Assembly (NCBI RefSeq): GCF_000372725.1
Contig: NW_005202428.1
Location: 2,469,791-2,533,790, forward strand
Reading direction: 5' to 3'
Length of the DNA: 64,000 nt
DNA from: Emiliania huxleyi CCMP1516
Lineage: Eukaryota
Made by a program: the position numbers and the translations under genes. The notes under the pieces are model-generated. The model saw only the letters and a program-made list of their open reading frames with translations. It was not told the origin of the DNA and made no database searches. Positions 39,259-64,000 of the stretch are shown here, piece by piece; positions within the stretch are counted from its first letter, which is position 1, and every line of letters begins with the position of its first letter.

Positions 39259-40112
39259 GCTGGCTCGTGGCAGGCGCTCGGCGAGTACCACCAGCGGCCG
39301 CGTAAAAACAGCTTGCGAATGCGGCCGTCCAATTTTAGTGTTTTTCAGGTTTTCATCATCACGTTAGTGCACCATTACTCATCTGGCTCTGAACGACTGC
39401 CAAAGGTGAGGTAGGAGTCCACGGTGCTCCCCCCATCTAGCACAGCATCTTGGTAGCTGTGCCTGTGCCCTGTGGCGCGAACAGACAGCTTCGTTCATTC
39501 AGCTTTTCTCGCCCGCCGTCTGCTGAGGGCGAGGCGCCGAGCTACGGTTCCAACGCTGCAGCACTCTCTCTCTATTCACAGTAGAGATGGCGACGCGTCC
39601 TTACGCGCGCGTCCTCCGTCCCCACCTAGCACCTTGCTCTCTGCTTCAACGTGCTGCCATGGAGCCAGCGCGCCTCGCGCCATGATTCAATCCGGATACA
39701 GCGCTCAGCAGGAGTCGGACGACCTTCGACGGCTCTGTATATGGTCTAAATGGAATATGGAAAGCGGGATAACCTTTCTACATATACCTATAGTGCATAG
39801 ACAGAGAGCGCGTGAGCCGTCGGGGCTGGGTGTGGGTAGCCTGTTCTGTAGATCTAAACTGTGTATATGTCACATGATGTATGTCGAGTGCAGAGTGAGT
39901 ATTTTTGGGGTTCATTCGTTTTCGTTAACGTTCTTTTTGTGCATTGTGGCCATTTCGGTTTTCGCATTCGTGTGAATTTCAATTTTGAAATCGACCGTTT
40001 CAAATCTCGAATAATCTCGTGGCAAGACGAGAGATCACAGGCACATGAGACCTTCGGTCGTGCCTCACAGACGCCCAAAACGCGGCCGCGGTGTCCACCC
40101 GTCCTCATCCGT

Positions 40113-40958
40113 TCATGAAGAGCCCACCGAAGCGCCGCCGCGGGAGTACCGCCCCCGCAGATACTCGACAATGTCGGCGCTCTCGGCCAGCTGCACGCCG
40201 CTATTTGGGTCGAGCAAGAAGGGGCATTGGCTCGACCCGCCCGTGAGTATTTTGAGCTCCTCGCGGCGCGGGCTGCCCTTGCCGGCGGAGCGGAGCTCGT
40301 ACGGCAGGTCGAGCTCGCAGAGCACCTGAAGGAGAAGGGAGTGGGATGCTACCAGCTGCGGGGAGAGGGCGGCGGTGGGGCAGCGTGCGGCCCGCGCCTC
40401 TCTCACAAGGCGGCAAAATTGGTTGCCCTCGTACGAGTAGAGGACGAGCGGCCGGTCGGGCGGGGCCGGCAGAGCAGACTTGTCGACCAGCCCCCCGCGG
40501 CCGAGGCGCAGCGCAGAGGCGACGAAGCCGGTGCCGACGCCCGGCACGTCCACGGTTGCGCCGTACTTTGCAATCAGGTGGCGGCAGATTTCTTCCGACT
40601 CAAAGAGCCGAGTATCGCCGTCGAGGAGGAAGGGCACCTGCACATTACTCCCGGCGGCGGCGGCGTACTCGGCGAGAGCGTCGCGGGAGCGAGAGCCGCG
40701 CGCGGACGGGACGAGGTTGACGACCATATCGAGCTCGGTTGCAACCTCTCGCACACGTCGGCAGAAGGGGCAGCCCTCCATGTCGTACAGCGTCGGCGGC
40801 GCTTGGTCTGTCTGGCCGCCGCGGCTGCCCTCAGTGACCGTCACACCTCGAGGCAGGCGTGCAATGGAGGCAAACCCGCTGGTGAGGGTGTCGAGAGGCG
40901 TGAGGTTCGGCACAAGGGCGGCAACAGCCGCAAAGGCAAAGGCTGGTGAGGGTGTCAT
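40113..40958 (-). CDS. Tandem GST-N/glutaredoxin-domain protein (plastid-type), copy 1
   Basis: LYDMEGCPFCRRVRE..QVPFLLD..LFESEEI and LYSYEGNQFCRLVRE..ELDLPY..CPFLLDPNSG..ESADIVEYL; one in-frame intron. Confidence 0.9.
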   Translation of the reverse strand: MTPSPAFAFAAVAALVPNLTPLDTLTSGFASIARLPRGVTVTEGSRGGQTDQAPPTLYDMEGCPFCRRVREVATELDMVVNLVPSARGSRSRDALAEYAAAAGSNVQVPFLLDGDTRLFESEEICRHLIAKYGATVDVPGVGTGFVASALRLGRGGLVDKSALPAPPDRPLVLYSYEGNQFCRLVREARAARCPTAALSPQLVASHSLLLQVLCELDLPYELRSAGKGSPRREELKILTGGSSQCPFLLDPNSGVQLAESADIVEYLRGRYSRGGASVGSS

Positions 40959-40980
40959 TGCACGTCTGCTATGGCAGGCA

Positions 40981-41154
40981 GGGTTCGGACTTTTTGCGGG
41001 GTATGGTATGTGCAAGAGCCGAGACAATTTCCCCCCCGCCTGATGACAGACCTACTTGGGGGTATGGTAGGGCTAGTCTTGGGCGGTCGGGACCAATGAT
41101 CCCCTCTTTGGGCCGCGAGGCTACCATACCATACCCCGGAAAAAGTTGGAACCC
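40981..41154. mobile_element. Small MITE-like element with imperfect 30-bp TIRs (second copy ~59848-60017; half copy ~4449-4483)
   Basis: GGGTTCGGACTTTTTGCGGGGTATGGTATG versus CATACCATACCCCGGAAAAAGTTGGAACCC. Confidence 0.6.
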
Positions 41155-41369
41155 GGTGCGGGAGAGAAGAAGAAGAATTCTAGGTCCCAAAGAATTGCAG
41201 AACAGCTGAGTCGACTCCCATCCTCCCATCCCTCCCTGGGTTCTCTGTTTTCTTTCTTCCCCCCCTCCCTTGGGTTCGCTGTTTTCTTTCTTGTATCCCT
41301 CCCTTGGGTTTTCTCTTCTCTTCTCTTCTCTTTCTTTCTTTAAAGGCTGAGTCGTCCCAAATCAGCAGT

Positions 41370-42134
41370 TCACCCTCGGGTATATGTTCGTAAGAACCAC
41401 ATACACTGAAAATCCTGCTCGCTGCAGGTGGAGCCCGCGCCGCTCTTATCGCAGAAGCCGAAGAGCTCCTCGCAGCGCTCGCGGCGTGGCAGTCCGAGGC
41501 CGCTCCGAGCGCATGCGCGCTCCACCGCGCGGAGCGTCTCTTCGATGTTCAACATCTGATCCCCGTCCGCGTCGTCCGCCGCGAACTCAGCGGCCGCGAT
41601 GCGCCGCCTCTCGTCTGGATTTGCCAGCAGCGCCCGCGCCCATTCGACGCCTGTCTGGTCGGCAAAGCCACCTCTGCCCTCATCGTCAAGGGAGGAGAAG
41701 CGGTTTGGGGACTCGACGGCGGGGGATTCAGGCGCATCTCTGCTCTTGACTGGACGGCGCGGCACCATCCAGCCCGGCTGAAGCTCTGGCCCTGTCTGCA
41801 GCAGCCGAGGCGGCGGCGGCGGCGGCAGCGACTGCTTCTCCACTGTCGCCGTCGGCGGCGCTTCGAGGTCTATCGCAGTAGAGTCACCGGGCATAGGTGC
41901 TCCTCGTGCTGCCGCGCCGCCCGTCTCACCCGACGCCGCTTCACCCTGGCCCCCGGAGAGTGACTCTCCGAGAAAGCAGCCGTTCCAACGGCAGACGAGG
42001 ATGAAGAGGAGGAAAAGCCCGTGGTACAGCACTTCGACGCGGTCGCCGAGGCTCAGTTTGAGACGTAGCGCGGCAAGGGACAGAAGGAGCGCAGCCGCCA
42101 TAGGCCAGCTGCCGCCGCGGCAGAGAGATGCCAT
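41370..42134 (-). CDS. EF-hand protein with N-terminal hydrophobic segments; 3' end uncertain
   Basis: FAADDADGDQMLNIEET and LFGFCDKSG EF-hand loops. Confidence 0.55.
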   Translation of the reverse strand: MASLCRGGSWPMAAALLLSLAALRLKLSLGDRVEVLYHGLFLLFILVCRWNGCFLGESLSGGQGEAASGETGGAAARGAPMPGDSTAIDLEAPPTATVEKQSLPPPPPPRLLQTGPELQPGWMVPRRPVKSRDAPESPAVESPNRFSSLDDEGRGGFADQTGVEWARALLANPDERRRIAAAEFAADDADGDQMLNIEETLRAVERACARSGLGLPRRERCEELFGFCDKSGAGSTCSEQDFQCMWFLRTYTRG

Positions 42135-42362
42135 GGCAATTGAGCGACGAGGCCGACGGTTTTGGTTGATCGCGAAAACGGACGTAAGTACCGCTCGTTT
42201 CATGGGCCGGCGGTACGTCAATGAATAATAAAGAATTAACGGTAAAGAATTAACGGCTACGTGCGGCTGCGGCTGCGAGAGGGGCTGCCGTCGATGACTA
42301 GCCACACCACCTCCTCCGGCAAGTCCTTTCGCCGCCAAAGCGCGTACGTACCGACCGGTATT

Positions 42363-42609
42363 ATGACGATCGGCCGTCGATCCCGAAGGGTCGTCGGTTG
42401 AGCTAGGGAGCCTGGCGATGGACGCCACCGCGACCCCTCGTGGCATCTCTCTCGCCGTCGGCGAGCCGGGGGCTCGCAGACGGCCGACTTTCTATATAAC
42501 CAGTAGGACAGCCGTGAGTGTGAATCGGATAAGGAGTTTGCGTCCGTCCACCGTCTTCGTGGACGTCTGTCCTCGTGACACCCACACCCCACACGGCCTG
42601 TTTTGCTTC
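42363..42609 (+). repeat. Split direct repeat A1 (247 bp)
   Basis: Appears identical to 51841-52087. Confidence 0.95.
42493..42499 (+). promoter_or_regulatory. Putative TATA box in repeat A
   Basis: TATATAA in an otherwise GC-rich repeat, ~270 bp upstream of the gag ATG. Confidence 0.4.
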
Positions 42610-42763
42610 TGTCGTACCGGTATCAGCCTCTCGTTAGAGCATCCGGGACGATCTTGCCATATCCATACCGCACGTGCCGGCTGCGCTCAGGGCTGCAGCA
42701 GCGCCGCTCAGGGCCACGCCGTCGCCAGGAGAGGCGGGCGGCCCGACAGGCAGCGCTTCCGGC

Positions 42764-43855
42764 ATGGTTCTGGCAGAGGTTTCGCCGTCCGGGGACGGCG
42801 GGGTGGCCGTGGGGACGGACGCGGACGCGGAGAAGATCGAGAAGTTGCTGCGATCGGAGCGGGGCGGGACGCGTCTGACAGCTGTCGGCATTGTCGACGA
42901 GAAGATTGGTGACGTCGCTTTTGAGCTGGCAGAAGACATCCCGTTCGCGGCGCTGGAGCAGCGCCTCCTCCACCCTGATGGGTGGGAGGCGCTGGCGGGG
43001 ACGCTGCTCGGGGAGCCCAGCGCGCGGGCTGGCTACCTCATCAAGAGGGACCTCCTCAAGACCTGGTGGCAGGATGCGACACCTGAGCAGCCTCCCACCA
43101 AGGCGGGCGCACCGACGCGCTCGGCGGGCGCCTCAGTAGTGGCGAGCTCGCAGCCGGCCGCGAAACCGGCGGCGATTCTGAGTGCCAAGTACGCCACCGA
43201 GCTCGAGGGGCAGGGACTCGACGAGCCGGGTGCGCTCGCCCTTAGCATTACCCTAGAAATCGGAGGGGTAGTGTCGGCAGAGGAGGCGTTGGCACTGGAC
43301 GGGGCAAAGTACGGCACGTCGCCTGGCCTGGTCAGCAAGGTACGGAAGATGCGGGAGGATGGAGCAAGCCTTTGCCAGGCCCTCAAAGGCGGACGCCGCG
43401 CAGTGCTCGAGCACTGCCGCCGTCTGGAGCAGGACTACATTGAACGGGGCATGCAGACAGAGGCCTCGCTGATGCTCAGCCTGCGGTCTGGACTCATGGA
43501 GTTCAATGACGAGAAGATCCTCCTCACCTACTTCCAGCGGTACCTCCGCAAGTACTCCGGGCGCGGCCTACCGAGCCTGCCCGTCGACAAGGAGCTCCGC
43601 GACGACGTCTTCCGCGAGCAGGAGAAGTCTACGGAGTCGCTCAAGAAGGAGATCGAGGACATCGGGAAGCGGCTCGCCAAGGCGGAGGCGGTGGCGGCAG
43701 AGGCCAAGGCCAAGGCGGCGGCGGCCGAGGAGGCGGCGAAGCGGACGGGCAAGTCCAACGTCAAGACCTGCTACTGGTGCGGCGAGGAGGGGCACGTCAA
43801 GCCTGATTGCCCCGTCTTCAAAGCCGATTTGCCGAAGGTCAAGAAGGGCAACTGA
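42764..43855 (+). CDS. gag: Gag-like ORF1 with coiled coil and CCHC zinc knuckle
   Basis: CYWCGEEGHVKPDC (Cx2Cx4Hx4C) at 43769-43810; first ATG at 42764. Confidence 0.9.
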   Translation: MVLAEVSPSGDGGVAVGTDADAEKIEKLLRSERGGTRLTAVGIVDEKIGDVAFELAEDIPFAALEQRLLHPDGWEALAGTLLGEPSARAGYLIKRDLLKTWWQDATPEQPPTKAGAPTRSAGASVVASSQPAAKPAAILSAKYATELEGQGLDEPGALALSITLEIGGVVSAEEALALDGAKYGTSPGLVSKVRKMREDGASLCQALKGGRRAVLEHCRRLEQDYIERGMQTEASLMLSLRSGLMEFNDEKILLTYFQRYLRKYSGRGLPSLPVDKELRDDVFREQEKSTESLKKEIEDIGKRLAKAEAVAAEAKAKAAAAEEAAKRTGKSNVKTCYWCGEEGHVKPDCPVFKADLPKVKKGN

Positions 43856-43954
43856 TGCCCTCGGGGCCTAGCCCCGCCGACCTGCCTCGCTCGCACCGCG
43901 TGACCCTCACGCACCGCGGGCGGGGCTCGGGACGGTGAGGCGCCCCACCGCGCC

Positions 43955-46900
43955 GTGGCTGCCCGGGCTTATGAAGAGAGAGCCGACGCCCGTAACAGGG
44001 TGGCTCCTTCTCTGATCCCCGCCCGGGCAGCCCGGCGTTTTTCTGTGTTTCCACCTCACAGAGGTGGTGGCGCCTCTCCTCCCCCACACCAGGGCGAGGC
44101 AGGCGTCTCCTCCCCTGGTTGTGGTCGTGTGTTTGGTGCGTCGTCTGTGGTAGTCGTTCGTCCCAGTGACAGAGTTTTGGAGTCAGCGCTGAGTCCGGTT
44201 GTCTCAACTCGTACTGTGGACGATGGTCCGGCCCCGGCGGAAGCCGAGGGCGAGGAGGAGAATCGGCGGGCGAATATCGACTGGGCGGGCTGCCCAGCCA
44301 TCGCCGACTCGGCCCCGCCGAAACGGCCAGCCCTCTCTCAGCTCGTTTTGGGATGCAGTCAGCTCCACGCACCTCGAGGCGTCGCGAGCCGGCCACCGGC
44401 CGCGCCGCCCCCCAGCGGTGTGGCGGGCATCTCAGCCACGAGTGGCGAGCGGGCAGACGAGGAGGCAATCGGCGACGGCGGGAGCCGCCGCCTTCAAGAG
44501 CAGAGCGCGTGGGCCGGGATCGGCCTCGCCGCCGACGAGAGAGCCGTGGCAGCTGCTGGGCTCATTTTGTCGCAGTGGCGGCGCTCGGTGACGCTCCGGA
44601 CGGAGCGGGTTGGTGCGCTCCGGACGGAGCGTGGGGGAGCCGGACGGCTCCTGGATCGGGCAGCCGGACGGCTGCCAGGTGACTGCGCGCTGGCCGGGAT
44701 CGGCCTCGCCGCCGACGAGAGAGCCGTGGCTGCCGCTGGGCTCATCCGTTCCCGGTGGCAGCGCTGGGTGTTGCTCCGGACGGAGCGAGCTGAGGCGCTC
44801 CGGACGGGGCGTGGGGGAGCCGGACGGCTCCCAAATCGGGCAGCCGGACGGCTGCCAGGTGACTGCGCGCTGGCCGGGATCGGCCTCGCCGCCGACGAGA
44901 GAGCCGTAGCAGCCGCTGGGCTCATCCGTTCCCGGTGGCAGCGCTGGATGACGCTCCGAACGGAGCGAGCTGAGGCGCTCCGGACGGGGCGGGGGGGAGC
45001 CGGACGGCTCCCAGATCGGGCAGCCGGACGGCCGCCAGGCGACTCCATGAGTGCGGAAGCGTGGGCCAGAGGCGGCGCGAGCTTCGCCGACGTCGACCGA
45101 CCAGAGCTGGACAGCGTGGTGCGCGCTCGCGCCGCCGGGCTCCTGCAACGACGCTGGAGGAGCAGAGGGCCGCCCGGGACCGGGCGGGCGCCCGGGATCG
45201 GTTGCGGCAGGGAGCGCCCCCTCGCGGAGCCGCTCCCGACATGGGTGACTCGCCTCGTCGTCTCCGCCCAACGTCGATGGCGGCGAGGCCGCCTCACGAG
45301 CATCGAGGTCGGCTGGGATCGACGGCGAGCCCACGCGCTCGGCGCTCTCGAGGCGCATGTGCGCTTCATGCAGCACGTCGTACGATCCTCCATCCGCCTC
45401 GGCCGATGGCGGCGCGGCGGCATGAGAGGAGTCCCCCTCGCGCTTCGTTGGTTGCGTCGTGAACGTCCGCCGTCGTGTGGTGGAGGGCGCAACCTTGCCT
45501 CGGACGAGGATTTTGCGGCTCAGCGTGCCCTCGCCGAAGAGTGGATGGGCTGGTACGACAACTATGTCGCCATCCTCAGGCGGCTTCAGTCGGGCGAGAC
45601 CCCGGGCATTCTCGAGCTCTTCTGCGGCAGCGGCGGCGGCAGCGAAGGCACGAGGAGGTCTGGTGGACGCAGCCACGGTGTCGACCTCTACGACATGCCC
45701 GAGTACATCGACAGATTCGGGCCGGAGGCCTTCACGCGGGGCGACGCGATCGACCACGCTCTCATCGGCTTCTTGCGGCACCAACACCGGGCTCTAGCTG
45801 CGTTCGCCTCCCCCCCGTGCAAGGAGTATAGCACGGCGAGGGACGCGCGAACGCCGGCGAAGCAGCCCGGGCTCATCGACCACACTCGGGACATGCTGCG
45901 CGGGCAGTTCAAGTACTGGTCTATCGAGAACGTGGCCGGGGCGCGCAAGGCCATGAAGGACGCGGTCGAGCTGCGAGGCTCCCTCTTCGGTCTCAAAGTG
46001 GCAAGGCCTCGGCTCTTCGAGTCGAGCTTCGAGCTGGTCGTCGACAGAGCCGTCGCCGAGCCCGCCGCACGGCTCGCCAAGCGGTGCTGCCTCGGGCAGC
46101 GGCGCAGGTGGCGCAGAAGGGACTCGTTCGGCCGGCCCGTGGGGCCGTGCTGCGGGGGCAACATATTCTCGCCCCTAGGGGAGCATCCGATGCGGTGCTC
46201 GGTCGAGCAGTGCGCAGACGCGATGGGGATCGACGTGGGGCACATGTCGTACCCGCGGCTCGCTCAGTCCATCCCTCCCGACTACAACCGGCTCCGCTAC
46301 GCGCAGTGCTGCGCTGCGATAGCCAAGGATCGGTTCGGCGTGCCCTTCATCTCCTTCGACGAGATGCGACGGCGGCCCGCTTGGGCAAAACGTGAGATCG
46401 CCCGCTGGCTCCGTGGCGCCGGCGACGCCGAGCCTGCCGCTGCTCTCGAGTGGCAGGGTAGGGCGGCGGCGCCGGAGCGCGCAGAGGCGCCTCAGACGGC
46501 ACCGGCTGGAGCCGGCTGCGACGGTGAGCGGACATTCACAGACGAGGAGCTCGTCTTCCGCGAGCTCTTCTACTCATATGTCGGCGGCTTCGACCAGCAG
46601 CGCGTTGACGGCGAGGTCAAGGCGGGCTGGCTCGACGAGCTGCTGCCGAATCGACGTCTCGATCGGCTCGAGGCGGGCTCTCTCACCGGGCACAACACGT
46701 ACCTGGACGTGCCCGGCCCGGAGCTGGAGGCGGCGTGGCCGGCCATCGAGGCCGCGCTGGCCGCCCCGGCCACCTCGGTCGTGGTGAGAGTCGACCGCGA
46801 CGTCGCCGAGCGATGGCGAGAGCGGGGCTTCTCTCCCCCCGACGTGCCGGCGAGTTACTGGCGGGGCGGCGCTCCCTCGCCGGGTCTCGCCTCTCGCCCG

Positions 46901-49900
46901 GCCCTGGTCGCGGGCGGTCGCCTGTGGGCGAGCCGGGAGAGCCGTCTCGACCACTCTGAGGCTCGCGAGTACATGGACTGGCGGGATCAGACGGGCTGGA
47001 AGCCAGACGCTCTGGAGAAGGCGGCTGCCACCTACCGTCCTCTCCCACACGCGCCCGAGGCGTGGGCTCACGCCGCTAGGGCCGGGTCGGGCGACCTCGG
47101 AGCTGCCGAGATGGCCAGGTATCCGGTGATGAGGGAGGAGGTCCGGTTAGCCATGACTGAGGGGGTCAGCGTCTCGACCGAGGCCGAGCTGGGCAGGTAC
47201 GAGGTCGCGCAGTACCCCTTCTCCTCCCTCCAGGCCGAGTCGCAGTGCGGCAGGGAGGTGGACCGGGCTCTGTTGGCCGGCCATCTCGAGCCCGTCCCTC
47301 TCTCGGAGTACGACCAGGTGCGCTGCGTGCATCCCTGGACCATCGTGGACCAGGGCGGCGGCAAACATCGAGCGTGTCAGTCGTACGACGTCGGCCTCAA
47401 CCGAGTGACGAGGACGGCTCCGTTTGCCCTCCCTTCGGCTTGGAACGTGGACCGGCTGCTCGGCCCGGATTCGCACTTTGTCAAGCATGACTTGCGCGAT
47501 GGGTTCTGGGGCGTGCGGATCAACCGCGCGTCTCGGAATCACTTTGTCCTGCGCCACCCTATCACGGGCATGCTTGTGCGCTGCACGAGCTTGCCGTTTG
47601 GCTGGGCGGACTCGCCGCGCATCTTCTGCGCCGTCACCGAGACCATCGCGGCTATGGTTCGGCGGCGCTGTGCGGGCCGCGGCGTGCACATTCTCGCGTA
47701 CGTAGACGACTTTTTGATCGTGGGTGACTCCGAGGAGGCGGCGCGCTATGGCGGCGCCGTCTTCGAGGCGGTCTGCCAGGAGATGGGCCTCGAGTGGGCG
47801 CCGCACAAGGCGCGAGGACCGTGCCGGTGCATCGAGTTCCTCGGGCTCCTCATCTGCAACTTCCCAGGCCGCCGATGCATCGCCCTGACCGAGGCGAGGC
47901 AGCAGAGGCTGCAGGGAATGATCACGGACTGGCTGTCGAGGCGCCGACTCGACGGGCGGCCGGCCGAGGCGGAGCCGGTCGAGTTGGCTCGCCTTCTCGG
48001 CCATATGGTCTTCGCCTCGCAGGTCATCCCCGGCGGGCGGACGTATATGCAGGGTACGCTCTCGCAGTTCCAGGGCCTCGAGGTCGACTGGAGACGTGGG
48101 AAGGTGCGGGTGGCGACGCCAGCGCCTGAGCGGCGTCGCCGTCCCGGCCCCACCCCTCGCTCTCCGTGGCGCCAGATCGAGCTGAGCGCGGACTTCTTCC
48201 GCGACCTCGAGTGGTGGTCGGCGATGCTGGCTCGGCGCAACTGCACCGATCTGGACCGGCGGCCTCGCGCCATCGCCGCTATCACAGGTACCGACGCGAG
48301 CGACTGGGGCACAGGCCAGCTCGCCTGGCTCGACGGCCAACGTGCCGAGGTGCAGCTGCAGTTCAGCCCGGTCGAGCAGGCGTGGTCCATCAACGCTCGA
48401 GAGCTGTTCGGCATCCTCCGGGTCGTCCAGTTCTACGGCGAGCAGCTTCAGGGCAGCGCGGTGCTGGTCGAGGGCGACAACACCGCCGCCATCGGCGCCG
48501 CGCAGAACCAGGCGTCGACGGCGGTGTCGATGCAGGAGACGCTGCGCCGGCTGCTCGAGACGGCGGAGAGGTGGGACATCGAGCTCCGCTTCGTCCACAC
48601 GCCGGGCGTGCTCCTCCACCGGCCCGACCAAACCTCGAGAGGCGATCCCATCGAGGAGCCGCGGGTGCGGCTAGCGGCGGCGGAGTTCGCCGCCATCGAG
48701 CGCCTGACGGGACGTTTCACCGAGTTCGTGGGCGCCGAGAGGCGACACGCCGCCGCCGAGGTCGGGGCGCAGCACAAGTGCCCGGGTGGAGGCAGCCCCC
48801 AATCCCCAGGTGGTGAGGATGGGTGCGTCGGTGGCGGGCTGGCCGCCACAGTCGCGGGCGGCAAGCCGCCTCCCCACCTCTGGGTGCACCCCACGCACAG
48901 CACGGTGGGCTCCGCCCTGCGGCGTGTGGGGGAGCGACTTTCAGAGGCGGGCGGTCAGAGGATCAGTGGAGTCGTGGTGGTACCGGACGCACCAAACGCA
49001 GGCTGGTCTCGGCTGCTTCGCCATTTTTCAATATTGGGACGCTATGCCGTCGATGATGGCCCTCAGACCCGGGGGGAGGGGGTAGTCGAGATGCAGCAGA
49101 TGGGGAGATTCGTCAGCTGTCGAGTCCGGCGCCCGACGCTCATCCTGTCTTTTCCCCGGGCGTCAGGCGCGACGCCGGCGCTCCTCCCTTGCGGCCGGCC
49201 ACAGGTCATGATGGCCGGCTCGTTCCTCTGGAGCCCTCCGGGGCCGAAGGCTAAGTCGACGGAGAGAGGCAACCTCGTCCAGGTCGCCTCCACCTTCGAC
49301 CCGTCGGCGGTCGAGCCCGACCGCGGCGGATGGCCCATCGCAGTGGCCGAGCTCTTGGGCGTGCGCGGGAAGCTGCGTACCTTCGAGCTCCTGGACGGCA
49401 GCGCGCGCGGCGGGTGCAGCTACTATGACGGCTCGACTCGCTCGCCATGGGAGTACAACAGTTCGGACCTCGCCAACTACTGGCTCGTCAACGACTTCGT
49501 CACTCGGGAGGATCCCTCGGGCGCCGGGGTCGTAGGCCGCTTCTCCTTCGATTGGAAGGCGGCCGTGCAGCAGCTGGAGAGGTGGCGGGCGCAGAGCGCC
49601 ACGGGCGGTGCCACCCCGCCGACCGACGGCGACGCCACGCTAGCCGAGGCGATTGGGGGCTTGCGGGTCGACGAGGGCGGCAACTCTCCAGACGACGCCT
49701 TGAAGCTGGCTCGTGCCTCAGCGGACGAGGCAGCAGCGGCGCGGAGGCGCGTCGTGCCGAACGCCGCTCCAGCTGCCAGCTCGAAGGACCGAGAGCCGTC
49801 GGTCTCGGGCGCCGTCCAGCACTGCCAGAGCCGCGGCATGACATGCGCGGGCTGTGGAGTTGTGTTTGGGCTGGGCGCCAAGATCGAGCCGCGTGGCGCC

Positions 49901-51622
49901 GGCTTCGTACACGCCGGCCGTGACGAATGCGGCCGAGCCGCCGACGAGAAGGCTCCGGCTGTCATCGAGTCGGTGAGCCGGAGGGAGGCGTCCCTCGAGA
50001 CGGTCCTGGGCGCCGGACGTGTCGAGACGGCGCTCAAGTGCCTCCAAGGGGGGTGCAGTGCCACAGGCGACAAGTACATCTGTGGACGCTGCGGCTCCTA
50101 CGGGCTCCACCGCGAGTGCGCGGGCTTGTCGAAATACCAGGTCGAGCCGGGACAGCTCGTCTGTGCCGTGTGCAGGGCCGAAGCCATGACGCCGGACGGC
50201 CACTCACCCACCGACCTCGTCCTCCGACGCGCCGCTCGGACGATGCTCGCCGAGCTGGGCACCAAGGCGTCCTCCACGTCGAAGAACCACGCGGAGTTCA
50301 CCCGTCTCGAGGAGGTGTGGGCTACGAGTATGGGCGGCGGCGTCGTCCTGCCCCGCTACCGTGTCGAGTCGATGCTCGAGTTTATCAACTGGCTCGCGAT
50401 GGACTCCGGCCGCGCTCGCTCGTTCGAGACGATCCTGAGGGCGGCGGGCGGAGTCATCGCCAAGACCACCGCCAACGGCATAATGTCCGACCCCCGGGTG
50501 AAGGCGCTCCGCGCGAGGATGGTCAGCCTGATCGGCGAGCTCGCGCAGCCGTGCACGCACACCACGCGCAAGCTCGCTCGACTCGTTCTCGACGAGACGC
50601 TCAAGACGTGCTGCACCGGCGCCAAGGCGGAGGCAGTCTACTCGAGTCATCGCGTCATGTTCCTCCTTGAGGTGATGATGGGGTTGCGGCTCGGCGAGAC
50701 GACGGGCCGCCAGCACGGCGTCGCCGCCTGCGACGTGTGGATCGTCAACCCGCTCTCAGAGCGATGTGCCGAGATGGGGACGACTGTTGCCGCCCACCTC
50801 GAGTCCACGAAGACGGCCCAGGGGAAGGGCCGGTGGGCTCACTGTGTGGGCACGTCACTCACCTCTGAGTTCAGCCTCGAGTCTGCCGTGCGGGATCTGT
50901 GGCGTGTGCAGGGGCACTCGACCGAGACGGTCACGGTGGACGGCTTCAAGGTGGAGCGGCCGGACTACTCTGTCGTGCAGCTGCGTGTCGGGGCGAGCCT
51001 GCCAGACGGCGCTTTCGACACCTTCGTCGGGGCCCTCGGCCGGCTGCCGAGTGACCACCCGCTCCGGCCAGCGGCCAAATACCTTGGCCGCACCGCGACT
51101 CAGAAGAGGAGGGCGGCGACCATCGAGGAGGGCGATCGGTACGTCAACCTCGTTGGGGGAGCCAAGGGTTCTGCCAGACTCCGCGCTGCCAGCGAGTGGT
51201 TGGCGGGACTGGGGCTCACCCAGTACGCCGCCGTCGTCAAAGGCCCGCTCATCCGGGCGACAGACGGCGGGCGCCTCACCGATACTCCGCTAGAGACTGG
51301 CTCGTCATATAGCCATTCTACGAAAGCGCTCAAGCTCGCGTACGAGCTCCTCCGCGAGCGCGACGAGGAGGACCTCGAGCTTGCGATTGAGGAGGACGAG
51401 GCGGGCAACCCGATCGTCAAGTTTGCCCACCATTCGAACCGACGGTTCTCGGACAAGGTGGCGCGGGACACGAGCGATGTCACGGGCGCTACCATCACAG
51501 ACATCGACTGCATCTTCGGCTGGAACGAGCAGGAGCGAGAGAGGTCGATGCAGCAGCACTACGCCGGCCTCGATCTCGCCTCGCGCATCGAGCGGCTCGC
51601 GCGAGTGACTATGATGGTGTAG
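43955..51622 (+). CDS. pol: ORF2 polyprotein: 60-aa repeats / C5-DNMT / RT / RNase H / degenerate adenine-MTase-like / PHD / tyrosine recombinase
   Basis: DNMT: ELFCGSGG, SPPC, ENV, RPRLF, LAQSIPP (45608-46285). RT: HDLRDGFW, LPFGW, YVDD (47699-47710). RNase H: TDAS, INAREL, EGDN. PHD: C4HC3 (50039-50173). YR: GLRLGE, HSNR, FGW, HY. Confidence 0.95.
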   Translation: MAARAYEERADARNRVAPSLIPARAARRFSVFPPHRGGGASPPPHQGEAGVSSPGCGRVFGASSVVVVRPSDRVLESALSPVVSTRTVDDGPAPAEAEGEEENRRANIDWAGCPAIADSAPPKRPALSQLVLGCSQLHAPRGVASRPPAAPPPSGVAGISATSGERADEEAIGDGGSRRLQEQSAWAGIGLAADERAVAAAGLILSQWRRSVTLRTERVGALRTERGGAGRLLDRAAGRLPGDCALAGIGLAADERAVAAAGLIRSRWQRWVLLRTERAEALRTGRGGAGRLPNRAAGRLPGDCALAGIGLAADERAVAAAGLIRSRWQRWMTLRTERAEALRTGRGGAGRLPDRAAGRPPGDSMSAEAWARGGASFADVDRPELDSVVRARAAGLLQRRWRSRGPPGTGRAPGIGCGRERPLAEPLPTWVTRLVVSAQRRWRRGRLTSIEVGWDRRRAHALGALEAHVRFMQHVVRSSIRLGRWRRGGMRGVPLALRWLRRERPPSCGGGRNLASDEDFAAQRALAEEWMGWYDNYVAILRRLQSGETPGILELFCGSGGGSEGTRRSGGRSHGVDLYDMPEYIDRFGPEAFTRGDAIDHALIGFLRHQHRALAAFASPPCKEYSTARDARTPAKQPGLIDHTRDMLRGQFKYWSIENVAGARKAMKDAVELRGSLFGLKVARPRLFESSFELVVDRAVAEPAARLAKRCCLGQRRRWRRRDSFGRPVGPCCGGNIFSPLGEHPMRCSVEQCADAMGIDVGHMSYPRLAQSIPPDYNRLRYAQCCAAIAKDRFGVPFISFDEMRRRPAWAKREIARWLRGAGDAEPAAALEWQGRAAAPERAEAPQTAPAGAGCDGERTFTDEELVFRELFYSYVGGFDQQRVDGEVKAGWLDELLPNRRLDRLEAGSLTGHNTYLDVPGPELEAAWPAIEAALAAPATSVVVRVDRDVAERWRERGFSPPDVPASYWRGGAPSPGLASRPALVAGGRLWASRESRLDHSEAREYMDWRDQTGWKPDALEKAAATYRPLPHAPEAWAHAARAGSGDLGAAEMARYPVMREEVRLAMTEGVSVSTEAELGRYEVAQYPFSSLQAESQCGREVDRALLAGHLEPVPLSEYDQVRCVHPWTIVDQGGGKHRACQSYDVGLNRVTRTAPFALPSAWNVDRLLGPDSHFVKHDLRDGFWGVRINRASRNHFVLRHPITGMLVRCTSLPFGWADSPRIFCAVTETIAAMVRRRCAGRGVHILAYVDDFLIVGDSEEAARYGGAVFEAVCQEMGLEWAPHKARGPCRCIEFLGLLICNFPGRRCIALTEARQQRLQGMITDWLSRRRLDGRPAEAEPVELARLLGHMVFASQVIPGGRTYMQGTLSQFQGLEVDWRRGKVRVATPAPERRRRPGPTPRSPWRQIELSADFFRDLEWWSAMLARRNCTDLDRRPRAIAAITGTDASDWGTGQLAWLDGQRAEVQLQFSPVEQAWSINARELFGILRVVQFYGEQLQGSAVLVEGDNTAAIGAAQNQASTAVSMQETLRRLLETAERWDIELRFVHTPGVLLHRPDQTSRGDPIEEPRVRLAAAEFAAIERLTGRFTEFVGAERRHAAAEVGAQHKCPGGGSPQSPGGEDGCVGGGLAATVAGGKPPPHLWVHPTHSTVGSALRRVGERLSEAGGQRISGVVVVPDAPNAGWSRLLRHFSILGRYAVDDGPQTRGEGVVEMQQMGRFVSCRVRRPTLILSFPRASGATPALLPCGRPQVMMAGSFLWSPPGPKAKSTERGNLVQVASTFDPSAVEPDRGGWPIAVAELLGVRGKLRTFELLDGSARGGCSYYDGSTRSPWEYNSSDLANYWLVNDFVTREDPSGAGVVGRFSFDWKAAVQQLERWRAQSATGGATPPTDGDATLAEAIGGLRVDEGGNSPDDALKLARASADEAAAARRRVVPNAAPAASSKDREPSVSGAVQHCQSRGMTCAGCGVVFGLGAKIEPRGAGFVHAGRDECGRAADEKAPAVIESVSRREASLETVLGAGRVETALKCLQGGCSATGDKYICGRCGSYGLHRECAGLSKYQVEPGQLVCAVCRAEAMTPDGHSPTDLVLRRAARTMLAELGTKASSTSKNHAEFTRLEEVWATSMGGGVVLPRYRVESMLEFINWLAMDSGRARSFETILRAAGGVIAKTTANGIMSDPRVKALRARMVSLIGELAQPCTHTTRKLARLVLDETLKTCCTGAKAEAVYSSHRVMFLLEVMMGLRLGETTGRQHGVAACDVWIVNPLSERCAEMGTTVAAHLESTKTAQGKGRWAHCVGTSLTSEFSLESAVRDLWRVQGHSTETVTVDGFKVERPDYSVVQLRVGASLPDGAFDTFVGALGRLPSDHPLRPAAKYLGRTATQKRRAATIEEGDRYVNLVGGAKGSARLRAASEWLAGLGLTQYAAVVKGPLIRATDGGRLTDTPLETGSSYSHSTKALKLAYELLRERDEEDLELAIEEDEAGNPIVKFAHHSNRRFSDKVARDTSDVTGATITDIDCIFGWNEQERERSMQQHYAGLDLASRIERLARVTMMV
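44512..45044 (+). repeat. Three 180-bp in-frame tandem repeats in the ORF2 N-terminus
   Basis: GGCCGGGATCGGCCTCGCCGCCGACGAGAGAGCCG at 44512, 44692 and 44872. Confidence 0.92.
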
Positions 51623-51678
51623 TGGCTGAGGGGCTGTGGGGCAGGGCTCGAGATCATGTTCTACGATGGATGGCGATG

Positions 51679-51840
51679 GGGGTTGGTCCTGCAACGGTGT
51701 CTCGTGCGGAGCAGTGGTGTGCTGTCGCGCGAGGGTTGCAGGCGTGAGGGTCGAGGGTACCTTTTCCCCCCTTTGCTATTAACAATGCTTTGGAATCTAT
51801 GAACATGACCTCGAGTGGAGCCCCAGTCCTCGACAGGCTC
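51679..51840 (+). repeat. Split direct repeat B1 (162 bp)
   Basis: Appears identical to 52126-52287 and abuts A2 directly. Confidence 0.95.
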
Positions 51841-52087
51841 ATGACGATCGGCCGTCGATCCCGAAGGGTCGTCGGTTGAGCTAGGGAGCCTGGCGATGGA
51901 CGCCACCGCGACCCCTCGTGGCATCTCTCTCGCCGTCGGCGAGCCGGGGGCTCGCAGACGGCCGACTTTCTATATAACCAGTAGGACAGCCGTGAGTGTG
52001 AATCGGATAAGGAGTTTGCGTCCGTCCACCGTCTTCGTGGACGTCTGTCCTCGTGACACCCACACCCCACACGGCCTGTTTTGCTTC
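51841..52087 (+). repeat. Split direct repeat A2 (247 bp)
   Basis: Copy of 42363-42609. Confidence 0.95.
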
Positions 52088-52125
52088 CCCACCCACCCTC
52101 CCTATTGTGTGCGCTGTCGCGTTTT

Positions 52126-52287
52126 GGGGTTGGTCCTGCAACGGTGTCTCGTGCGGAGCAGTGGTGTGCTGTCGCGCGAGGGTTGCAGGCGTGAGGGTCG
52201 AGGGTACCTTTTCCCCCCTTTGCTATTAACAATGCTTTGGAATCTATGAACATGACCTCGAGTGGAGCCCCAGTCCTCGACAGGCTC
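52126..52287 (+). repeat. Split direct repeat B2 (162 bp), right end of the element
   Basis: Copy of 51679-51840; separated from A2 by a unique 38-bp spacer. Confidence 0.95.
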
Positions 52288-53376
52288 ACACGTACGTACG
52301 AACCATGGTACGAACAAAAGCCGTTCTTGCCCCGCCGCGGTACGTTTACACGCGCCTGAAAGCGATAACTCGGGCGCCGTTCAAATTAAACCCAACATGC
52401 AACAACTGCACGCGCTCAAATTAAAACATCAGAAAGTCAGGACCTTAAATACGAGCGTCATTTTGTATGCCCACCCACCCTTGTTCGTGGGGACCCCCCC
52501 GCCGGTCGGTGGCCTGCCCCCGAGGTGGACCGGACCCCCCCTCCGGTCGGTCGCTCTCTCGGCGGCGGGAGGTGTGACGACCGACCCCCCCCTCGGTCGG
52601 TGTCCTTGCCGTGAGCCCCCTCAAACGCTCTCTCTCCCTCCTTCTCGCCATGCCGCCACGGGCGCTTCGAAATCGCCGGTTTTCACTATGAAAACTAGTT
52701 ACGCAGCCAAGCGCCAAGGAGACTTCTTCGCCGAGGCCCGAGCAAGCCCGACCCCACACATATGTGGAGCATCTACGCAGTCGCAGGCGGCCTGGTCCTG
52801 CTTGCCGTCTCGCTTTGTACAAGCTCTGGTCGCGCTCAAGCGGCTCGTCAACGGGTACAGTGTGTCGCCGGCGAAGCTAATCGTATGGACGACGACGACC
52901 AGAGTGTGGACATGGACCAGCTCGTGTTCCGACCCAATCCTGAGCGTCTCGGTCTCGTGTCTCGAGCTCAGCCGCCACTCGGACGACGATCGACGAGGAG
53001 TGATTAGACGGGGAGTGAGAGCGAGAGGGCGCTTGGTCTCTGTATTTCGAGATACTAATTTATTCACAGCTGCGGCGAGCGTGTGCGGTGTGTGTGACCC
53101 TCGAGCCAACCCGACCGACCCCCCCTCGGTCTGCGCTCCGAGCGACCGACCGGACCCCCCCTCCGGGCCGTCCGGTCTGCGGTCTTCCGCGGCCCGCGTC
53201 GACCCCGGACCCCCCCCCTGCGGTCGGTCGGTCTCTGCGCTGGGCGCTCAAACCGCAAACTCGGCCTGTTCACTACAAGATGACGCTCGTATAACTAGGA
53301 CATTTTAATCACACACATCACGTCTGAAGAAAATAGGTGGGCGCACACTAATACAAAAATGAAGCTGTGGCTCCCG

Positions 53377-55283
53377 CTAAATGGACCCGAAGGCCCCGGT
53401 AAACGACCCAAAGAGAGCGGTGTCCTTGGTAATGGCGAGGAGCGGACCCGACTCCTCGATCGAGTCTGCAAACTTCTCGTAGTGCGAAGTGTCGTCGCTG
53501 GAGGACACGTCCGGCGCAATGTACGGCTCCATGGTCTTGTTGTACAGCGCCGCCCAGTTGAGCCCGCGGTACCACTTTTGCTTCTTGATCTCCTCCGCGC
53601 CCCCGCCGTTCTTCGTGCTGCCGATGCGCTTTGTGCGGTCGGCGGTGAGGAGCTTGCGAATCAGCTCCTTGGCGGTGGGCTCAAAGTGGCGCGGGCACTC
53701 GTGCCTGCCCGAGGGGAGCCGAGGAGAGCCGAGGTGAGCCGATGCGAGCCGAGGTGAGCGGCTCCTGTAGATGGTGTCGCGCCTCCCCGCGAGGATCTTT
53801 TGGTAAATGCCGAAGGGCGAGTCGTCAAAGAAGGGGGGGTAGCCCGCCTGGGGGGGAGGGGAGGAGCACCGCCGGAGGGGGTGGGAGTGCGACCCCCCCT
53901 GTGAGCCGGACACCGCCGACTCCGAGCGCTCCGCCAACCGCCTGCGGGAGGAGTGGGTGGGTCGCATCTAGGGGCAGCCCGCCAGCATCTCGTAGATGAC
54001 GATGCCGAGCGCCCACCAGTCGACCGCAAAGTTGTGCCTGGGAAAGAAAAGGGGGCGCCGGACTCACAGAAAGCGGTGAGCCGCGCGCGCCGTCGAGTGC
54101 TGCGTCGCCCCCCCTGGACTGGATGATCTCCGGCTAGATCTCGGCCAGATCTCGGCCAGATCTCGGCTAGATCTCGGCTAGAGTCGCGCCCCTTGGACTG
54201 GATGATCTCCGGCGCGAGGTACTCGGGCGTGCCTACAGGGAGGGAGAGAGGCACGCAGTCACAACACGCAGCCACCGGCAGGCAGGCTCGGCTCCTCACC
54301 CGCTGCAGAGATCTCCCCGCAGGCACAGCTCTCCCGAGGTGCTCTGTGCGAGGTGCTCTCGCGTGCCGCACAGAGTGCGGGTGCGGTCCTCTCGGGCGAT
54401 CTCGGGCGATCTCGGGCGATCTCGGGCGTGCCGCAGAGAGTCCAGGTGCGGTCCGCCACGCGCTTGGCGAACCCGAAGTCGACCAGCTTGAGGAAGCCGC
54501 GCCTGAGCAGCGGGGCGGAGCAGCGGGGGCGGAGCAGCGGGGGCGGGTGACTCGCGGGCGAGGGCGAGGAGAGAAGGGAGGGAGGCGAGGGGAGGTGCGG
54601 CCGGATCTCTCGGCGGATCTCGGCGGATCTCGGCCGGATCTCGCCCGTCGAGCAGCAGGTTCTCCGGCTTGAGGTCGCGGTACACGACGCCGATCCCGTG
54701 CAAGTGCTGCACCGCCATCACGGCCTGCGCGAGAGGCAGCAAAGATGCAGCAAAGAGGCAGCAAAGATGCAGCCGAGAGGCAGCCGAGAGGCAGCCGAGC
54801 AGCCGAGAGGCAGCCGAGAGGCAGCCGAGAGGCAGCCGAGAGGCAGCCGAGAGGCAGCCGAGAGGCAGCCGAGAGGCAGCCGAGAGGCAGCCGAGAGGCA
54901 GCCGAGAGGCAGCCGAGAGGCAGCCGAGAGGCAGCCGAGAGGCAGCCGAGAGGCAGCCGAGAGGCAGCCGAGGCCGTGCAGGCGCTGTCGTCGCCTGCGC
55001 GGCGTAGAAGCGCGCGCCCTCGTTGGAGAAGCGCGCGGCCTAAGGGACGGGGACACGTCCGCGACACGTCCGCGACACGTCCGCGACACGCCCGAGCGGC
55101 GCCCCTCTGTGTGTGGGGGGTGGCGGTGTAGCTGGCGGCCGCCTTGCGGAGGTGGGAGAAGAGCTCTCCGCCAGGCACGTACTCGAGCAGCATGTACAGG
55201 CTCCTCTCGTCCTGAGTATAACATAATATAATATAATATATAATAGTACTCGAGCAGCATGTACAGGCTCCTCTCGTCCTGAG
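53377..55283 (-). CDS. cAMP-dependent protein kinase catalytic subunit-like (AGC kinase), 5' part lost in gap; copy 1
   Basis: [66 protein letters not shown]-tail DDTSHYEKF. Confidence 0.93.
54769..54972. repeat. 11-nt intronic minisatellite (GCAGCCGAGAG)n
   Basis: About 18 units here versus about 9 units at 63307-63410. Confidence 0.9.
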
Positions 55284-55410
55284 GGGAGAGGCGGCACAGC
55301 TGGCCGCCCTAGCTCACCGCCCTCCCTCCCGCCTCTTGTGTGACGTCGGCGAGTGCTGTCTCGCTCTCGGGCGGCTCGCGCGGGCTCCTCTCGTCTGGAA
55401 GGCGTGTCTC

Positions 55411-55544
55411 CATGTGCATGTGCGTGTGCATGTGCATGTGCATGTGCATGTGCATGTGCATGTGCATGTGCATGTGCATGTGCATGTGCATGTGCATGTG
55501 CATGTGTCGCGGAGAGAGCGAAGAGAAGGAGAGAGAGGGAGTGG

Positions 55545-55604
<60 letters not shown>

Positions 55605-60620: not shown

Positions 60621-61924
60621 CAATTGAGCGACGAGGCCGACGGTTTTGGTTGATCGCGAAAACGGACGTAAGTACCGCTCGTTTCATGGGCCGGCGGTAC
60701 GTCAATGAATAATAAAGAATTAACGGTGGCTACGTGCGGCTGCGGCTGCGAGAGGGGCTGCCGTCGATGACTAGCCACACCACCTCCTCCGGCAAGTCCT
60801 TTCGCCGCCAAAGCGCGTACGTACCGACCGGTATTACACGTACGTACGAACCATGGTACGAACAAAAGCCGTTCTTGCCCCGCCGCGGTACGTTTACACG
60901 CGCCTGAAAGCGATAACTCGGGCGCCGTTCAAATTAAACCCAACATGCAACAACTGCACGCGCTCAAATTAAAACATCAGAAAGTCAGGACCTTAAATAC
61001 GAGCGTCATTTTGTATGCCCACCCACCCTTGTTCGTGGGGACCCCCCCGCCGGTCGGTGGCCTGCCCCCGAGGTGGACCGGACCCCCCCTCCGGTCGGTC
61101 GCTCTCTCGGCGGCGGGAGGTGTGACGACCGACCCCCCCCTCGGTCGGTGTCCTTGCCGTGAGCCCCCTCAAACGCTCTCTCTCCCTCCTTCTCGCCATG
61201 CCGCCACGGGCGCTTCGAAATCGCCGGTTTTCACTATGAAAACTAGTTACGCAGCCAAGCGCCAAGGAGACTTCTTCGCCGAGGCCCGAGCAAGCCCGAC
61301 CCCACACATATGTGGAGCATCTACGCAGTCGCAGGCGGCCTGGTCCTGCTTGCCGTCTCGCTTTGTACAAGCTCTGGTCGCGCTCAAGCGGCTCGTCAAC
61401 GGGTACAGTGTGTCGCCGGCGAAGCTAATCGTATGGACGACGACGACCAGAGTGTGGACATGGACCAGCTCGTGTTCCGACCCAATCCTGAGCGTCTCGG
61501 TCTCGTGTCTCGAGCTCAGCCGCCACTCGGACGACGATCGACGAGGAGTGATTAGACGGGGAGTGAGAGCGAGAGGGCGCTTGGTCTCTGTATTTCGAGA
61601 TACTAATTTATTCACAGCTGCGGCGAGCGTGTGCGGTGTGTGTGACCCTCGAGCCAACCCGACCGACCCCCCCTCGGTCTGCGCTCCGAGCGACCGACCG
61701 GACCCCCCCTCCGGGCCGTCCGGTCTGCGGTCTTCCGCGGCCCGCGTCGACCCCGGACCCCCCCCCTGCGGTCGGTCGGTCTCTGCGCTGGGCGCTCAAA
61801 CCGCAAACTCGGCCTGTTCACTACAAGATGACGCTCGTATAACTAGGACATTTTAATCACACACATCACGTCTGAAGAAAATAGGTGGGCGCACACTAAT
61901 ACAAAAATGAAGCTGTGGCTCCCG

Positions 61925-63937: not shown

Positions 63938-64000
<63 letters not shown>

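What the first reader, a model, noticed from the sequence alone, without database searches (positions are those of the whole stretch)
42363..52287. Intact split-repeat YR retrotransposon whose single polyprotein fuses a cytosine DNA methyltransferase to RT, RNase H, PHD finger and tyrosine recombinase
Seen: A1-gag-ORF2-B1-A2-B2 layout with apparently identical repeat pairs, and a stop-free 2555-codon frame ordered DNMT > RT > RNase H > MT-like > PHD > YR with catalytic motifs intact. Established: DIRS-order elements normally encode YR in a separate ORF from RT/RH. Where they carry a methylase it is usually an adenine (DAM-like) domain after RNase H; cytosine-DNMT-bearing retrotransposons are known from a few lineages such as Symbiodiniaceae dinoflagellates and charophytes. 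Inference: this is a young, probably mobile element with its own epigenetic writer (5mC) and a chromatin reader (PHD) in one protein. It could methylate its own cDNA circle or new insertions. I do not know of this architecture being described in haptophytes.
Basis: partly seen in the sequence, partly recalled or inferred. Interest (0 to 1): 0.93.

Follow-up and report, generated by a model that had tools for sequence, protein, structure and literature searches.

The report
Algal retrotransposon with phage-type cytosine methylase
This is an intact, recently inserted jumping gene of a marine alga whose one giant protein joins a bacteriophage-type DNA cytosine methylase to its copying and integrating enzymes; it belongs to a large family that standard domain searches miss, and it likely methylates its own new DNA copies.

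Summary
A 9,926-bp element has perfect split direct repeats (A1-gag-pol-B1-A2-B2) and a stop-free 2,572-codon pol frame. The window also holds the empty site (no target duplication), and four sequencing runs bridge it, so the insertion is recent. Pfam sees only RT. The methylase is confirmed by PHROG, phage and homologue searches, and the tyrosine recombinase by fold search and an intact R-K-H-R-W-Y set. The same full domain order sits in one protein in 77 of 120 relatives from metagenomes, so the fusion is not an assembly artefact. The methylase is not Dnmt3, as in dinoflagellate SymbioDIRS: it descends from small phage/bacterial C5 methylases, is conserved like RT and travels with it. So this looks like an independent capture. 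The concept (split-repeat YR element with a cytosine methylase in Pol) is already published. New here: the donor, the RT-YR fusion, PHD and weakly BAH-like modules, and probably the host group. Self-methylation and chromatin reading are inferred; there is no CG mutation footprint. The scan noted the same theme in dinoflagellates, with no sequence look-alike. Verdict: new variant of a known kind, interest 0.62.

The parts
42363..52288 (+). Whole element, 9,926 bp, inserted without target-site duplication (one base, A, shared with the target)
   Evidence: Repeats; filled and empty sites compared; contig joint 42362>52288 in run X3
42363..42609 (+). Repeat A1
   Evidence: 100% identical to A2
42764..43855 (+). 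ORF1, gag-like, 363 aa, CCHC knuckle near the C end
43876..43936 (+). Predicted long RNA hairpin just after the gag stop; gag and pol are in the same frame, parted by two UGA codons 48 nt apart
   Evidence: Frame; fold z -2.7 here, -3.8 in L002, -4.6 after the single UAG of distant relative L007; role inferred
43904..51622 (+). ORF2 (pol), 2,572 codons stop to stop; first ATG at 44948
44505..45044 (+). Three 180-nt (60-aa) repeats in the variable N-terminal part, each with an IQ-like helix motif
   Evidence: IQ-like pattern in 13 of 77 relatives' N-termini against 0.1 expected from shuffles; the IQ label is recalled
45599..46303 (+). C5 cytosine methyltransferase of small phage/bacterial type (motifs FCGSGG, SPPC with C639, ENV, RPR, QSIPP), with a Cys-rich basic insert in the variable region
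   Evidence: phrog_363 E 3e-16; 172 phage records, best 36%; alignment; motif counts
46535..46927 (+). Conserved module X1 of unknown fold between DNMT and RT
   Evidence: Present throughout the family; weak, non-significant likeness to the MT module; Atlas uninformative
47321..47908 (+). Reverse transcriptase (YVDD)
   Evidence: RVT_1 E 3.5e-14; catalytic Asp 119 of 119
48269..48658 (+). RNase H (TDAS...E...DN...D)
   Evidence: RT_RNaseH E 8e-4; four acidic residues 119 of 119
48659..49168 (+). DIRS/PAT-type adenine-methylase-like Rossmann module, catalytic motif replaced by HPT, likely inactive
   Evidence: Fold matches ErmE Z 7.3, KsgA 7.1, cap adenosine MTase 6.6, Dam 6.2 (middling Z); H and P fixed in 77 of 77
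49181..49603 (+). Module X3, SH3-like beta-barrel, weakly BAH-like
   Evidence: Folded alone, pLDDT 85; best match DNMT1 BAH1 Z 5.4, rmsd 3.3, 86 aligned; Foldseek no hit; inconclusive
49823..49933 (+). Zinc module C-x2-C...H-x-C before the PHD
   Evidence: C 77, C 77, H 75, C 74 of 77
50042..50173 (+). PHD-like C4HC3 finger
   Evidence: Seven ligand columns 76 of 76, the fourth Cys offset by one in this copy; weak profile match to a KDM5B PHD, E 0.26
50231..51619 (+). Tyrosine recombinase, core-binding plus catalytic domain (R2262, K2303, H2510, R2513, W2540, Y2553)
   Evidence: Integron integrase Z 15.3 (rmsd 3.9, 272 aligned), Cre Z 15.2, lambda Int Z 13.9; Foldseek Cre E 1.8e-4; motif counts
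51679..51841 (+). Repeat B1
51841..52087 (+). Repeat A2, abutting B1
52126..52288 (+). Repeat B2
60831..60840 (.). Empty site (between 60835 and 60836) in a 99.8% identical second copy of the flanks, probably the other haplotype
   Evidence: bridged by contigs of runs X2, X4, X9

Best explanation
This is a young, intact split-direct-repeat tyrosine-recombinase retrotransposon (PAT-like by structure) whose single pol frame carries a phage-type C5 cytosine methyltransferase that likely methylates the element's own new DNA copy before or during integration. Shown: the layout, the fusion, the intact catalytic residues, the insertion without target duplication, and the long joint descent of methylase, RT and recombinase. 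Inferred from the published model for PAT/Ngaro elements: the RNA is reverse-transcribed with jumps between the A and B repeats, which rebuilds a B|A junction that the recombinase joins to the target. Inferred here: Pol is made by read-through or re-initiation at the structured gag-pol junction, or from gag-less copies that have their own start codon; no protease was detected, so the methylase would stay tethered to RT and recombinase and act in cis; the zinc, PHD and BAH-like modules would hold the complex on DNA or nucleosomes. The likely gain is that new copies arrive already marked like host DNA. I put the identity at about 0.95 and the self-methylation step at about 0.65.
For: Identical repeats and open frame. 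Empty site in the window and in runs X3, X2, X4, X9. Full order DNMT-X1-RT-RH-MT-X3-Zn-PHD-CB-YR in one protein in 77 of the 120 best RT relatives; 102 of 120 carry the DNMT, and the other 18 start too close to RT to hold it. DNMT catalytic C 96, E 100, R 100, R 100 of 100; YR R 95, K 97, H 95, R 97, W 96, Y 96 of 97. Mean pairwise identity DNMT 52%, RT 60%, YR 38%; 35 of 44 supported DNMT splits recur in the RT-RH tree, like YR (36 of 43). Among near copies DNMT has 23 silent to 7 replacement differences against 54 to 62 in linkers, p 0.004. Closest stand-alone relatives are 206-282-aa PF00145 proteins and phage genes; 18 of 18 element DNMTs tested form one side of a 100-support branch. A related element's DNMT methylates CG in yeast (PMC5890265).
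Against: No activity was measured. No mutation footprint: CG observed/expected 1.10 in the element and 1.08 in the host; transition rate at CG 4.7% against 3.8-5.1% at other contexts, p 0.68. SymbioDIRS-Dnmt3 also shows no CG loss (PMC5890265), so this is weak. The target motif of this phage methylase family is not known to me. The PHD is deleted in frame in some copies that keep the YR frame and lacks the Trp before its His. X3 as BAH is below the trust level (Z 5.4). This copy has two in-frame UGA codons and no pol ATG until codon 349, so how it makes Pol is open. 6 of 44 supported DNMT splits conflict with the RT-RH tree. The homologue searches took only proteins of 1,414-4,501 aa, so relatives with split or methylase-free pol could not appear.
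Confidence: 0.7

Rival explanations
1. The methylase domain no longer writes 5mC on the element but is kept as a base-flipping DNA or RNA binding module that holds the nucleic acid for RT or the recombinase, like the dead adenine-methylase module after RNase H.
For: No CG or other context footprint. The same protein keeps a methylase fold with a dead motif at 46% mean identity. The variable region is rebuilt with a Cys-rich basic insert.
Against: SAM-binding glycines, catalytic Cys, Glu and both Arg are kept in 88-100 of 100 relatives, unlike the MT module, whose motif is replaced.
Confidence: 0.13
2. The enzyme is active but works in trans, on the insertion site, on host chromatin or on viral DNA, or methylates the element's RNA, rather than marking its cDNA.
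For: PHD-like and BAH-like modules sit beside the recombinase. De Mendoza 2018 raises RNA methylation for LINE-borne DNMTs and stray activity on the host genome (PMC5890265).
Against: Fusion to RT and YR with no protease detected (0 of 20 by Pfam) favours action in cis. Nearest relatives are annotated phage DNA methylases.
Confidence: 0.14
3. The fusion or the element is an assembly artefact, or the methylase is a passenger or bacterial contaminant.
For: The window holds a haplotype-like duplication around an N gap. No single contig in the laid runs spans the whole element. One cluster member is filed under a bacterial MAG.
Against: Independent metagenome contigs hold 2,425- and 2,513-codon open frames at about 98% identity (L002, L006) and a 2,578-codon frame in a distant relative (L007). 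77 divergent full-length proteins. Congruent trees and purifying selection.
Confidence: 0.02

Closest known systems
SymbioDIRS-Dnmt3 of Symbiodiniaceae (de Mendoza et al. 2018, PMC5890265; parts 1, 2 and 4 of 7 read, plus term searches in text and supplements)
   Same: A-coding-B-A-B repeats, cytosine methylase inside Pol with RT and RNase H, tyrosine recombinase, conserved methylase motifs, no CG depletion.
   Different: There the methylase is eukaryotic Dnmt3 and the recombinase is a separate ORF. Here the methylase is phage/bacterial type, N-terminal to RT, and RT-RH-MT-PHD-YR are one frame. RT relationship to SymbioDIRS could not be tested.
PAT-like YR retrotransposons (PAT, TOC, kangaroo) as defined in Piednoel et al. 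2011 (PMC3266345, passages) and Ribeiro et al. 2019 (PMC6681497, passages)
   Same: Split direct repeats A1...B1-A2-B2, gag with CCHC, RT-RH followed by an MT module, YR, no target duplication.
   Different: Usually three ORFs with YR apart from pol; no C5 methylase, PHD or BAH-like module in the passages read. Piednoel lists one E. huxleyi element of uncertain DIRS1/PAT status, without such description in the passages read.
Ngaro elements of Cafeteria burkhardae (Hackl et al. 2021, PMC8547959, passages)
   Same: Same repeat layout; ORF1-less variants coexist with full copies.
   Different: About 6 kb, three ORFs; Ngaro lacks the MT module (PMC3266345) and has no DNMT.
EpiLTRs of Cymbomonas and Euglena (bioRxiv 10.64898/2026.05.21.726589; parts 1-2 of 5 read, plus term search)
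   Same: One retrotransposon carrying adenine-methylase, cytosine-methylase and chromatin-reader modules.
   Different: LTR elements with DDE integrase and chromodomain; their DNMT is sister to DNMT4; here a YR element, phage-type DNMT, dead adenine module, PHD.
Small phage C5 methyltransferases (PHROG phrog_363; e.g. Mycobacterium phage DmpstrDiver ATN88929.1)
   Same: Homologous over the whole domain, 31-38% identity, with the family's own C-terminal motifs (AMG.D, Q.IPP.Y).
   Different: Stand-alone 206-282-aa proteins; they lack the element's CC...CC...C...C insert.

Membership tests
DIRS order (YR retrotransposons) | RT and RNase H with intact catalytic residues | tested here: met
DIRS order (YR retrotransposons) | Tyrosine recombinase in place of a DDE integrase | tested here: met
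   Fold search Z 15.3 to integron integrase and 15.2 to Cre; R-K-H-R-W-Y; no Pfam hit
DIRS order (YR retrotransposons) | Insertion without target-site duplication | tested here: met
   One shared base only, one site examined
PAT-like superfamily | Split direct repeats A1-[ORFs]-B1-A2-B2 | tested here: met
PAT-like superfamily | MT module after RNase H | tested here: met
   Rossmann N6A-methylase fold at residues 1586-1755, Z 6.2-7.3, in the expected place; middling Z
PAT-like superfamily | Groups with PAT/DIRS references in an RT-RH tree | not testable with these tools
   No named PAT, DIRS1, Ngaro or VIPER reference protein came back from any search
PAT-like superfamily | YR in an ORF separate from pol | tested here: not met
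   Single frame here and in 77 of 120 relatives; typical rather than strict, as two TATE copies are single-ORF (PMC6681497)
Ngaro superfamily | No MT module | tested here: not met
   MT module present
DIRS1-like superfamily | Inverted terminal repeats with an internal complementary region | tested here: not met
   Only direct repeats at the ends
SymbioDIRS-Dnmt3 | Methylase belongs to the Dnmt3 clade | tested here: not met
   Full-length homology to small phage methylases at E 6e-23 and above; no PDB sequence matched the single domain at E 10 and family profiles hit only two chains named cytosine-specific methyltransferase, 372-376 aa; no tree with Dnmt3 references could be built
SymbioDIRS-Dnmt3 | De novo CG methylation activity | not testable with these tools
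   Needs an assay; no CG footprint
C5 cytosine methyltransferase (PF00145 fold) | Motifs I, IV (PC), VI (ENV), VIII (RxR), X | tested here: met
   passes the Pfam cut-off in only 1 of 20 relatives scanned
PHD finger | C4HC3 ligand pattern | tested here: met
PHD finger | Significant profile or fold match, histone binding | tested here: inconclusive
   PHD_2 E 3.5, KDM5B PHD E 0.26; not folded alone; a RING-variant reading is not excluded
BAH domain (module X3) | BAH fold | tested here: inconclusive
   Best Z 5.4 to DNMT1 BAH1; about 10 of 50 rows are BAH-bearing proteins, the rest other SH3-like barrels

The most novel reading that the evidence does not exclude
An old, diverse and overlooked clade of marine-protist retrotransposons took a cytosine methylase from phages and built one unprocessed writer-reader-integrase protein: BAH-like and PHD modules choose the nucleosome context, the recombinase inserts the copy, and the phage enzyme writes a 5mC pattern of its own, so that these elements are an unrecognised source of DNA methylation in coccolithophore-type genomes that lack Dnmt3.
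Probability: 0.25. Interest if true: 0.85.

Novelty: new variant of a known kind. Interest (0 to 1): 0.62.

Why it matters
The captures of cytosine methylases by retrotransposons in the papers I read involve Dnmt3, a DNMT4-sister clade or an orphan dinoflagellate lineage. This one traces to a recognisable phage family, which makes it a further independent capture and a phage-to-eukaryote route for a 5mC writer. The family is large (at least 77 full-length clusters at 90% identity) yet nearly invisible to Pfam (DNA_methylase passes in 1 of 20, Phage_integrase in 0 of 20), so Pfam-based surveys would miss it; one such survey lists no Dnmt3 and no orphan DNMT for E. huxleyi (PMC12344493, supplementary table row). 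An intact, polymorphic copy with an empty allele beside it makes the open question, why retrotransposons carry methylases, testable in a culturable alga.

Tried and rejected
No whole genome was held, so copies and other insertion sites could not be counted. Contig depth over pol was roughly 15 times the flank in run X8 and lower over gag; the tool warns this is no copy number. Pfam and PHROG found nothing for X1, MT, X3 or YR. My idea that X1 is a second dead adenine-methylase fold got only hhalign probability 2.5%, P 0.019, in the expected register; unresolved, and X1 was not folded. Atlas look-ups for X1 and X3 gave scores of 0.80 at best, which is chance level. Foldseek for X3 found nothing. 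No relative in viral contigs with one pattern. A first count of IQ-like motifs (74 of 86) was inflated by a conserved motif next to the DNMT and was replaced by a controlled count. No gag-pol fusion among stored proteins. My early note that the element sits inside a high-copy repeat was wrong: the site is single-copy and the repeat starts about 180 bp downstream. B-A-gag joins in metagenome contigs cannot tell circles or tandem arrays from assembly through repeats. RNA run X10 covers pol with contigs, but DNA carry-over is not excluded. Palindromic 4-mer counts showed no element-specific loss. Prior description was sought in nine literature searches, of which I saw listings; none showed this family. 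Iyer et al. 2011, cited for DNMT-RT links, is not held, and Repbase, Dfam and the bioRxiv supplements could not be seen; any of them may hold the element.


Full report
Observation. The repeats are real and perfect: A1 42363-42609 equals A2 51841-52087, and B1 51679-51841 equals B2 52126-52288. ORF1 (42764-43855) ends in a CCHC knuckle. ORF2 (43904-51622) has 2,572 codons without a stop. Pfam recognises only RT on the whole protein; on segments DNA_methylase scores E 0.32, PHD_2 E 3.5, and the recombinase nothing.

The methylase. Residues 566-800 match PHROG phrog_363 at E 3e-16 and 172 phage records by tblastn, best 36%. Among 523 proteins of similar length (120 listed), the best after a few fragments of the element family are stand-alone proteins of 206-282 aa, mostly PF00145. 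The alignment is full-length and includes that family's own C-terminal motifs; the element version swaps the variable region for a basic insert with conserved cysteines. The single domain matched no PDB sequence at E 10, and family profiles matched only two chains named cytosine-specific methyltransferase, so nothing ties it to Dnmt1 or Dnmt3. In a tree of 18 element and 36 stand-alone sequences the two sets are parted by a branch with support 100. That tree has no eukaryotic references and no root, so the phage-to-element direction is an inference.

The rest of Pol. A model of residues 1586-2572 (mean pLDDT 81) matches integron integrase (Z 15.3), Cre (15.2) and lambda integrase (13.9) across core-binding and catalytic domains, and matches adenine-methylase Rossmann folds (Z 6.2-7.3) over its first 170 residues. 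The latter is the MT module of DIRS/PAT elements, described as likely inactive (PMC4738411, passages); here its motif reads HPT. A beta-barrel after it, folded alone, is nearest to the DNMT1 BAH1 domain but only at Z 5.4. A C-C-H-C zinc module and a C4HC3 finger precede the recombinase. The finger is PHD-like by pattern; the profile support is weak. A conserved module between DNMT and RT stays unidentified.

A family, not an artefact. A search with the DNMT region returned 39 long proteins, all with RT. A search with RT-RNase H returned 192, of which 120 were listed. With profiles built from the family itself, 77 of these 120 have the whole order in one protein and 102 carry the DNMT; the other 18 begin too near RT to include it. 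Catalytic residues are nearly invariant. DNMT, RT-RH and YR trees largely agree, with 3-6 supported conflicts per pair. Both searches were limited to proteins of 1,414-4,501 aa, so split or shorter relatives were not sampled. Metagenome contigs L002, L006 and L007 hold open pol frames of 2,425, 2,513 and 2,578 codons. Among eight near-identical loci the DNMT shows 23 silent and 7 replacement differences against 54 and 62 in linkers.

Recent insertion. The window carries a second copy of the flanks (55724-63997, 99.8% identical over the long blocks) beyond an N gap, probably the other haplotype, without the element. Only one base is shared between element end and target. A contig of run X3 joins 42362 to 52288, and contigs of X2, X4 and X9 bridge the empty site (X9 by 32 bases). 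Near copies vary: many lack gag and start pol with their own ATG after a variant A repeat, some lose the PHD in frame, and some lose part of YR. ORF1-less variants are known in Cafeteria Ngaros (PMC8547959, passages).

Expression of Pol. gag and pol share a frame, parted by two UGA codons here and in L002 and L006, and by one UAG in L007. A strong hairpin follows the stop in all three folded (z -2.7 to -4.6). Read-through or re-initiation is a lead; the hairpin test was prompted by an earlier scan note.

Mechanism. The copying route is taken from the published model for split-repeat elements (PMC6681497, passage). The methylase is most simply a cis-acting writer on the new DNA, as proposed for SymbioDIRS-Dnmt3, whose domain methylates CG in yeast (PMC5890265). 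Against this, there is no CG depletion and no excess of transitions at CG; SymbioDIRS lacks that footprint too.

Host. The flanking genes are eukaryotic and occur in marine protist transcriptome sets; holders are one cultured organism and marine plankton runs. From 65% G+C and the intron repeats I take it to be a coccolithophore of the Emiliania/Gephyrocapsa group; that name is recalled and comes from no call. Hosts of the distant relatives are unknown.

Novelty. The concept is published: de Mendoza 2018 describes the same repeat layout with Dnmt3 in Pol and a separate recombinase ORF, and the 2026 preprint describes LTR elements with two methylases and a chromodomain. PHD fingers occur in other retrotransposons (PMC9940879, passage). 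Nine searches showed no report of a phage-type C5 methylase in a single DNMT-RT-RH-MT-PHD-YR frame, or of such an element in haptophytes; Piednoel 2011 lists one unresolved E. huxleyi element. Repbase, Iyer 2011 and preprint supplements were not seen. The scan's own notes hold the theme in dinoflagellates but no sequence look-alike. I score it a new variant of a known kind, interest 0.62.

Noticed in passing
window 36894-55604 versus 55724-63997: Haplotype-like tandem duplication around an N gap (55622-55721); the copies differ by the element and by a 515-bp segment (41432-41946) replaced by about 130 bp in the other copy, a form also seen in run X1.
   Followed up: partly
window 60816-60848 (empty site): The insertion point lies in the 15-nt spacer of a 9-bp inverted repeat made of GTAC units; one site only, so target preference is untested.
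   Followed up: no
window about 52470-53295 and 61018-61843: A high-copy non-coding repeat of about 0.8 kb starts about 180 bp downstream of the element, with varied flanks in other runs and a CTAG near its right end; possibly a non-autonomous element.
   Followed up: partly
L002 1-11737: Three element pieces head to tail through B-A junctions: a deleted copy, a gag-less full pol copy, and a copy with a diverged gag that shares only its ends with the window's gag; real array or assembly chimera unknown.
   Followed up: partly
proteins P0006, P0007, P0009, P0010, P0013, P0014: A subfamily keeps DNMT-X1-RT-RH-MT, the zinc module and a core-binding-like end but lacks X3, PHD and the recombinase catalytic domain; a separate YR ORF or dependence on other copies was not checked.
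   Followed up: partly
proteins P0037, P0477, P0033, P0486, P0505, P0483: Some relatives carry extra modules: PF08719 (NADAR, name recalled), PF01693, NUDIX, SAP-like.
   Followed up: no
window 44505-45044 and relatives' N-termini: IQ-like helix motifs recur in otherwise unrelated N-terminal extensions (13 of 77, 0.1 expected), hinting at calmodulin or EF-hand binding.
   Followed up: partly
window 41370-42130, minus strand: The element sits about 230 bp upstream of a host gene with EF-hand-like motifs (label from inspection; no Pfam hit), so it may affect that allele's expression.
   Followed up: no
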